A DNA stretch of 30,368 nt. It comes from Acidobacteriaceae bacterium. GTDB taxonomy: Bacteria > Acidobacteriota > Terriglobia > Terriglobales > Acidobacteriaceae. The position numbers and the translations under genes are program-made. Positions 16,224-16,509 of this stretch are shown here, piece after piece. The DNA lies in assembly GCA_027307295.1 (NCBI GenBank), contig DAHUXF010000001.1, positions 1 to 30,368 of the forward strand. The letters run 5' to 3'. Each line of letters opens with the position of its first letter. Position 1 is the stretch's first letter. Under the pieces are notes generated by a model that was not told the origin of the DNA, did not search any database, and saw only the letters and a list, made by a program, of their open reading frames with translations.

Positions 16224-16252
16224 TTGACTTTCAAATTCAGCAGCGTTATTCT
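16224..16252 (+). promoter_or_regulatory. Near-consensus sigma70 promoter
   Basis: TTGACT (16224-16229), 17-nt spacer, TATTCT (16247-16252). Confidence 0.7.
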
Positions 16253-16258
16253 GCGCTT

Positions 16259-16450
16259 ACACGGGAAAGGAGGGCGATCCAATAAATATGAAAAGTTCTG
16301 ATAGTAGTCATAAACGTGAGGTGGCTGAGGCTTAAGGCGTGAGTCTTTAAGTCCTAGCGAAGTTGTGGTTCGCACAAGGCCTCCGCGCCTTCAGCCAATC
16401 CCAACAGCTTACCGAATAACCCCACACTGATGTGTGGGGTTATTTGTTTT
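16259..16450 (+). ncRNA. Candidate small RNA of about 190 nt (or dual-function RNA with a 15-aa ORF at 16288-16335)
   Basis: Bounded by a consensus promoter and a perfect terminator, with internal stems and no ORF longer than 15 aa. Not recognised as a known family. Confidence 0.55.
16415..16450 (+). terminator. Intrinsic terminator
   Basis: Perfect 13-bp stem AATAACCCCACAC / GTGTGGGGTTATT, TGAT loop, then TGTTTT. Confidence 0.85.
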
Positions 16451-16509
16451 ATGCAGCGACGGTGACGTGGTTCCTGGAAAGCGGGTACTTAAGTCACAAA
16501 AAAGCAGAG

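What the first reader, a model, noticed from the sequence alone, without database searches (positions are those of the whole stretch)
16224..16450. Self-contained RNA of about 190 nt with extended complementarity to the 16S rRNA 3' end, a 15-aa ORF and a three-way junction
Seen in sequence: promoter TTGACT-N17-TATTCT and a perfect 13-bp terminator (16415-16450) bound the unit. Near its 5' end, GAAAGGAGG-GC-GATCCA (16265-16281) matches the complement of the conserved 16S 3' end (GAAAGGAGG-T-GATCCA) over about 15 nt, far longer than a usual SD. ORF MKSSDSSHKREVAEA* follows (16288-16335) with long SD spacing (14 nt). Three stems can form: P1 16322-16330/16388-16397, P2 16331-16337/16345-16351, P3 16357-16361/16369-16373. 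The downstream MEDS gene has its own possible promoter. Inference: a standalone sRNA or dual-function RNA, possibly binding 30S subunits through the anti-SD, divergent from the rpsP operon. An attenuator leader is the alternative.
Basis: partly seen in the sequence, partly recalled or inferred. Interest (0 to 1): 0.7.

Follow-up and report, generated by a model that had tools for sequence, protein, structure and literature searches.

The report
Double-SD ribosome-docking mini-mRNA, Acidobacteria
This is a real, free-standing gene for a roughly 190-base RNA of soil Acidobacteria that can grip the ribosome's mRNA-docking tail twice, once before a tiny reading frame and again just before its stop codon; it is a variant of the poorly understood 'rre' small mRNAs, so far published only for Alphaproteobacteria.

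Summary
The promoter, extended Shine-Dalgarno (SD), 15-codon ORF, folded 3' domain and terminator form a single-copy unit in 74 of 79 genomes of the genus. It is not linked to rpsP or to any downstream gene, so it is not an attenuator. Rfam has no match. Among 217 distinct homologs the frame is kept in 216. The peptide's conserved end looks imposed by the RNA. The 5' SD is stronger than that of any of 3,295 long ORFs in the genome. A second SD-like hexamer, GAGGUG, lies exactly 15 nt before the stop in 26 of 26 members from 10 Acidobacteriota families. A similar element recurs in planctomycete (three reading frames) and alphaproteobacterial look-alikes. The 3' domain has two near-equal folds rather than one junction. 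The closest known kind is rreB/rreR (Hahn et al., PMC5711450). This locus fails their strict hallmark (perfect 16-17 nt match running into GTG), while distant members meet it. The scan found this family before on other DNA (e1-3029820, e1-5204215). Ribosome binding and function were not tested.

The parts
16224..16252 (+). sigma-70-type promoter (-35 TTGACT, 17 nt, -10 TATTCT)
   Evidence: -35 box kept in 208/217 homologs; BLAST matches in relatives often begin at 16224
16259..16264 (+). nearly invariant 5' end ACACGG; start site inferred at about 16259
   Evidence: alignment A1; start inferred from -10 spacing, not mapped
16265..16281 (+). extended SD, complementary to the 16S 3' tail, 9 + 6 nt with a one-base insertion (uninterrupted in distant members)
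16288..16335 (+). 15-codon ORF MKSSDSSHKREVAEA*, AU-rich and Ser/Cys-rich front half
   Evidence: frame kept in 216/217 homologs, mostly 11-23 aa; Ser 28% and Cys 11% against 17% and 8% in shuffles
16318..16323 (+). second SD-like hexamer GAGGUG, 15 nt before the stop codon
   Evidence: 115/115 full-length metagenome hits chosen on the 5' motif alone; at -15 in 26/26 phylum-wide members
16323..16396 (+). fold A: P1 16323-16331/16387-16396, P2 16332-16338/16343-16350 (holds the stop codon), P3 16357-16361/16369-16373
   Evidence: cognate beats non-cognate pairing for P1 18/25 and P2 53/71
16336..16389 (+). fold B helix 16336-16343/16381-16389, exclusive of P2 and of part of P1
   Evidence: cognate beats non-cognate in 70/75
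16396..16414 (+). conserved C/A-rich tail CAAUCCCAACAG...ACCG; can pair weakly with either SD-like element
   Evidence: no cognate-specific covariation with the 5' SD
16413..16452 (+). intrinsic terminator
   Evidence: a variable-sequence terminator-like hairpin follows the tail in the homologs inspected

Best explanation
An rre-type mini-mRNA whose point is to be held and read by a ribosome, not to deliver a specific peptide. Shown from sequence: its own promoter and terminator, an extreme 5' SD, a frame-conserved 11-23-codon ORF, a second SD-like element at a fixed distance from the stop, and a two-state 3' domain that buries the ORF end and stop codon. Inferred: (1) 30S docks tightly on the 5' SD and initiates slowly; (2) the ribosome reads the short unstructured front half, then melts P1/P2; (3) with the stop in the A site, GAGGUG lies 6 nt 5' of the P-site codon, the geometry of an initiation SD, so it re-pairs with the 16S tail and holds the terminating or post-termination ribosome; (4) while held, the 3' domain refolds and frees the conserved tail. 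The RNA's state (fold, stability, ribosome occupancy) would then report translation or termination capacity. What reads that state is not identified.
For: Stand-alone and single-copy: 74/79 genus genomes, at loci other than rpsP; neighbours vary (peptidase M49, VanZ, ThiG, RuvC, DinB, MFS, ABC; many convergent). Frame kept in 216/217, while spacer and 3' domain lengths vary in all phases. C-terminal codons change non-synonymously with fixed wobble bases (CGT/AGT, ACT/GCT, GAG/GGG), so the constraint is on RNA. GAGGUG at -15 in 26/26 members of 10 families with different last codons. The same zone is SD-like in 16/21 planctomycete and 8/10 alphaproteobacterial look-alikes against 12% and 9% of ordinary stops in the same loci, in three frames in planctomycetes. 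Two folds differ by 0.1 kcal/mol on average, 49/77 within 3. Ten distant members have the rre start geometry. rreB binds 30S, is weakly translated and decays start-codon-dependently (PMC5711450). SD-to-P-site spacers over 6 nt slow translocation 5-10-fold (10.1101/2020.04.16.045807). Soil RNA contigs from four studies lie only on 16243-16429 (weak hint).
Against: No ribosome-binding, translation or end-mapping data for this family. GAGGUG also pairs inside the RNA, so its conservation may be structural, and its fixed place within Acidobacteriota may be descent. Kin are not independent, so the p-values overstate. Gemmatimonadota look-alikes lack the element at this distance (1/5). Internal SD-like motifs do not cause general pauses in E. 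coli (PMC6377232). Twenty-fold rreB overexpression did not slow growth (PMC5711450). SD:tail pairing shows no covariation.
Confidence: 0.55

Rival explanations
1. A true small-protein gene: the Ser/Cys/His-rich peptide is the product (for example a metal ligand), and SD and structure only set a low, regulated output.
For: Frame conservation; Ser/Cys excess through both AGY and TCN codons; CxxC-like cores in many members; RreB and RreR are conserved within their clades (PMC5711450).
Against: Length 11-23 aa, free substitution, no Cys in this genome; the only invariant residues are encoded by invariant RNA; planctomycete look-alikes keep the RNA motif in other frames; no modifying enzymes stay adjacent; RreB/RreR peptides are unstructured (PMC5711450).
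Confidence: 0.2
2. A translation-gated base-pairing sRNA: ribosome passage, perhaps tuned by Ser/Cys tRNA supply, exposes the C-rich tail, which pairs with target mRNAs in trans.
For: 12-nt tail conserved across several families and largely unpaired in both folds; Ser/Cys codon excess; attenuator-like layout (Leu_leader 32.6 bits, below cut-off 50).
Against: No target in this genome beats shuffled seeds (best -24.9 against -22.7 to -27.0); the tail is replaced in more distant members that keep both SD elements.
Confidence: 0.13
3. A ribosome sink or storage RNA that parks 30S/70S in slow-growing soil cells.
For: Two anti-SD anchors; held by many soil metatranscriptomes.
Against: rreB is far scarcer than ribosomes and overexpression was harmless (PMC5711450); RNA level per ribosome not measured here.
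Confidence: 0.1
4. A cis attenuator leader of the MEDS gene, or a regulator of the divergent rpsP operon.
For: Leader-peptide-like layout; weak Leu_leader hit.
Against: No conserved downstream gene, commonly convergent; rpsP and the element lie apart in relatives; the terminator forms in every computed state.
Confidence: 0.02

Closest known systems
rreB (Bradyrhizobiaceae) and rreR (Rhodobacterales) small mRNAs; Hahn et al., RNA Biol 14:1353, PMC5711450
   Same: Stand-alone RNA of about 165-190 nt with RpoD-type promoter and terminator, extended complementarity to the free 16S 3' tail, clade-conserved 14-18-codon ORF, function elusive.
   Different: Here the match is interrupted (9 + 6 nt) and the start is ATG 12-14 nt downstream, not an overlapping GTG; no detectable sequence homology; a second SD at -15 from the stop and a two-state 3' domain are not described in that paper; different phylum.
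Rfam RF01867 CC2171 (alphaproteobacterial sRNA; Northern-validated, 10.1101/2022.01.24.477521)
   Same: An rreR-like locus (L159) scores 36 bits with this model, which ties it loosely to the same kind.
   Different: The model gives no hit at this locus.
Leader-peptide attenuators (Rfam RF00512 Leu_leader)
   Same: Short ORF, alternative helices, terminator (32.6 bits).
   Different: Below cut-off; no regulated downstream gene; terminator constitutive in computed folds.
Programmed internal-SD signals (prfB +1, dnaX -1 frameshift sites; from established knowledge)
   Same: An SD-like element at a fixed distance from a ribosome's P site, near a stop or a hairpin.
   Different: No conserved downstream frame to shift or read into; three stop codons are all used.

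Membership tests
rre small mRNAs (rreB/rreR) | At least 16-17 nt uninterrupted complementarity to the 16S 3' end | tested here: not met
   9 + 6 nt with one inserted base and a C.A mismatch; distant members have an uninterrupted match, often with one G.U
rre small mRNAs (rreB/rreR) | Complementary region ends in the first G of a GTG start | tested here: not met
   ATG, 14-nt spacer here; GTG at the rre position in 10 of 26 distant members
rre small mRNAs (rreB/rreR) | Clade-conserved sORF of about 14-18 codons | tested here: met
rre small mRNAs (rreB/rreR) | Stand-alone small transcript with own promoter and terminator | tested here: met
   by sequence and synteny; RNA contigs are a weak hint only
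rre small mRNAs (rreB/rreR) | Most of the SD paired in a conserved hairpin, 5' bases free | tested here: inconclusive
   SD core unpaired probability 0.42 on average, no covariation
rre small mRNAs (rreB/rreR) | Co-sediments with 30S; weak translation; start-codon-dependent decay | not testable with these tools
   needs gradients, reporters and half-lives
Rfam RF01867 CC2171 | Covariance-model score at or above 75 bits | tested here: not met
   no hit at the locus
Leader-peptide attenuator | Conserved co-oriented downstream operon | tested here: not met
6S RNA (RF00013) | Model match; is the genome's 6S gene | tested here: not met
   relatives have 6S at another locus
tmRNA (RF00023) | tRNA-like domain, SD-less resume frame | tested here: not met
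   full tmRNA lies elsewhere in relatives

The most novel reading that the evidence does not exclude
rre-type genes of several phyla form one widespread class of two-anchor mini-mRNAs that clamp a ribosome at initiation and again at termination, and use the held ribosome to flip a structured 3' domain: a dedicated sensor of termination or recycling that has gone unannotated.
Probability: 0.25. Interest if true: 0.85.

Novelty: new variant of a known kind. Interest (0 to 1): 0.56.

Why it matters
The function of rre small mRNAs has been open since 2016. This family is a conserved single-copy gene in a dominant soil phylum, with a cultured carrier (Occallatibacter savannae, L126). It supplies specific mutable features: a bulged 5' SD, a second SD at a fixed distance from the stop, and two folds. 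These turn 'function elusive' into direct toeprint, Ribo-seq and probing tests, and separate the peptide model from the ribosome-sensing model.

Tried and rejected
Rfam at gathering score: none; weak Leu_leader and rnk hits come from layout and terminator. 6S, tmRNA and tRNA rejected. rpsP linkage and attenuation rejected. No copies in phage or plasmid records; one of two viral-contig hits is a member, probably host or prophage-flanking DNA. No further striking complementarity to 16S/23S. No trans target above shuffles. Sec/Pyl recoding rejected: all three stops used. SD:tail and 5'-end:ACCG pairings lack covariation. One search used a mis-registered P2 and is not relied on; a single alignment cannot hold the lineage-shifted helices, so per-sequence tests were used. 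Not found in the sister family f2 (0/28 by exact pattern; 0/4 by a looser one) or in most other families sampled; these searches are insensitive, so this is not absence. Three literature searches for an Acidobacteria description or an rreB follow-up returned nothing relevant. PMC3338875 was not held.

Full report
Observation. The unit lies between the divergent rpsP-khpA-rimM-trmD-rplS operon and a MEDS-domain gene. Rfam gives nothing at gathering score.

It is a gene of its own. A search with rpsP plus the intergenic stretch gave two separate matches in most relatives: rpsP at one place, and window 16224-16450 (or its core to 16414) at 75-94% identity at another. The element is in 74 of 79 genus genomes and 48 of 49 good-quality ones, nearly always once. 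Named homologs are in Ca. Angelobacter, Terracidiphilus, Granulicella, Occallatibacter and Korobacteraceae; the window itself is probably Ca. Angelobacter (inference from near-identical copies). Flanking genes vary and are often convergent, which rules out attenuation. 6S RNA and tmRNA exist elsewhere in relatives. Nineteen soil or rhizosphere RNA runs hold part of the stretch. In four runs from four studies, contigs of related organisms cover only 16243-16429, and one 160-nt contig lies wholly inside the element. Contigs cannot give strand, ends or level, so this is a weak hint.

The 5' SD. Relatives' 16S tails are canonical. The element's SD region pairs at -20.9 kcal/mol, stronger than any of 3,295 long ORFs of the genome. 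Most Terriglobales members carry one extra base after AGGAGG, and many extend the match further 3'. Distant members are uninterrupted, so the bulge is lineage-specific.

The ORF. In 217 distinct homologs the first ATG after the SD is in frame with the conserved end in 216; the frame was not part of the selection. Lengths run mostly from 11 to 23 codons, whereas spacer and 3' domain change in any phase. Translation is therefore selected. The conserved end R-E-V-(T/A)-E-A uses fixed codons and varies by first- or second-position changes, which points to RNA rather than protein constraint. The front half is AU-rich and enriched in Ser and Cys beyond codon-position shuffles (related sequences, so overstated).

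A second SD. GAGGUG in the ORF is itself complementary to the anti-SD (about -10 kcal/mol). It was present in all 115 full-length metagenome hits chosen on the 5' motif only. A phylum-wide pattern that required GAGGT anywhere 8-60 nt downstream returned 30 loci. Twenty-six of them, from 10 families, have a short ORF, and in all 26 the hexamer is exactly 15 nt before the stop, with endings as different as SEVAET, REVPVT, KEVASS and REVADF. In ordinary genes of this genome that happens at 2 of 3,385 stops. With the stop in the A site the hexamer ends 6 nt before the P-site codon. Look-alike genes found by the 5' SD alone in Planctomycetota show an SD-like stretch in the same zone in 16 of 21 cases, read in three frames; alphaproteobacterial ones in 8 of 10; matched backgrounds are 12% and 9%; Gemmatimonadota do not (1 of 5). 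Caveats: the hexamer also pairs within the RNA, kin are not independent, and internal SDs do not generally pause E. coli ribosomes (PMC6377232).

The 3' domain. Fold A (P1, P2 holding the stop, P3, plus extra stems in longer members) and fold B (P2 loop and 3' arm paired with the strand before P1's 3' arm) exclude each other. Here they lie at -67.8 and -66.0 kcal/mol. Across 77 members the mean difference is 0.1 and 49 are within 3 kcal/mol. Cognate strands pair better than non-cognate ones in 70/75 for the fold B helix, 53/71 for P2 and 18/25 for P1. Core length varies from about 90 to 275 nt through insertions in the inner stems. A 12-nt tail before the terminator is conserved; no trans target or rRNA partner was found.

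Mechanism. Best reading (0.55): a mini-mRNA that docks 30S tightly, is translated slowly, holds the ribosome again at the stop through the second SD, and refolds its 3' domain as a result. The anatomy is shown; docking, pausing, refolding and the downstream output are inferred. Long SD spacers slowing translocation has in vitro support (10.1101/2020.04.16.045807). Rivals: functional peptide (0.2), translation-gated trans sRNA (0.13), ribosome sink (0.1), attenuator (0.02).

Comparison. The lead to rreB/rreR came from earlier scan notes, and I read the paper (PMC5711450). rreB is a 165-nt mRNA with a perfect 17-nt SD running into GTG and a 14-aa ORF; it binds 30S, is weakly translated, decays start-codon-dependently, and its function is elusive; only Alphaproteobacteria are reported. 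This locus fails the perfect-match and GTG hallmarks and does not hit RF01867, so it is not filed as rreB/rreR. Ten distant Acidobacteriota members do have the rre start geometry, so it very likely works like them. The scan reported this same family before (e1-3029820; e1-5204215, whose thiG neighbour matches a flank cluster here). The first of these noted two GAGGTGG copies; the fixed distance to the stop and its cross-phylum recurrence are what I tested here. I found no paper describing the Acidobacteria family.

Verdict. Real, conserved, unannotated; a new variant of a known but unexplained kind. Interest 0.56.

Noticed in passing
L121:5050-5090 (minus strand; Chloracidobacterium MAG): Terminator-like hairpin whose loop reads GGAUCACCCUCCUUUC, an anti-SD mimic complementary to the bulged SD motif, at the end of an ORF-poor stretch; a possible anti-SD sRNA or chance.
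   Followed up: no
L372-L380: Alphaproteobacterial rre-type loci with 21-26-aa ORFs starting VSHCH, Glu (GAG) five codons before the stop in 6 of 9, and a conserved GACAAUGGAAG before the terminator that can pair with the ORF start.
   Followed up: partly
L394-L418: Planctomycetota rre-type sORFs of 9-25 aa keep GGAGGUGG/GAGGUGG before the stop in three different frames.
   Followed up: partly
L387-L390: Gemmatimonadota rre-type sORFs (19-22 aa); three of four have GAGG about 9 nt before the stop instead of 15.
   Followed up: partly
L344, L345: Members with two in-frame GAGGTG copies, at -36 and -15 from the stop.
   Followed up: no
L200 and L212 (G109): 5' half and 3' domain of the gene lie on different contigs; an insertion or assembly break inside the ORF end.
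   Followed up: no
L076, L106, L111, L146, L179: Members whose inner stems are expanded by 120-180 nt while the core is intact.
   Followed up: no
L182 (IMG/VR contig, 42 kb): An intact member on a viral contig, perhaps host DNA beside a prophage.
   Followed up: no
L073, L173: Members in MAGs labelled Ktedonobacteraceae and Verrucomicrobiia; probably mis-binned Acidobacteria contigs.
   Followed up: no
window:15929-16012: About 85 nt upstream of rpsP, with a promoter-like site at 16010-15982, are conserved in the genus with rpsP; a possible leader.
   Followed up: no
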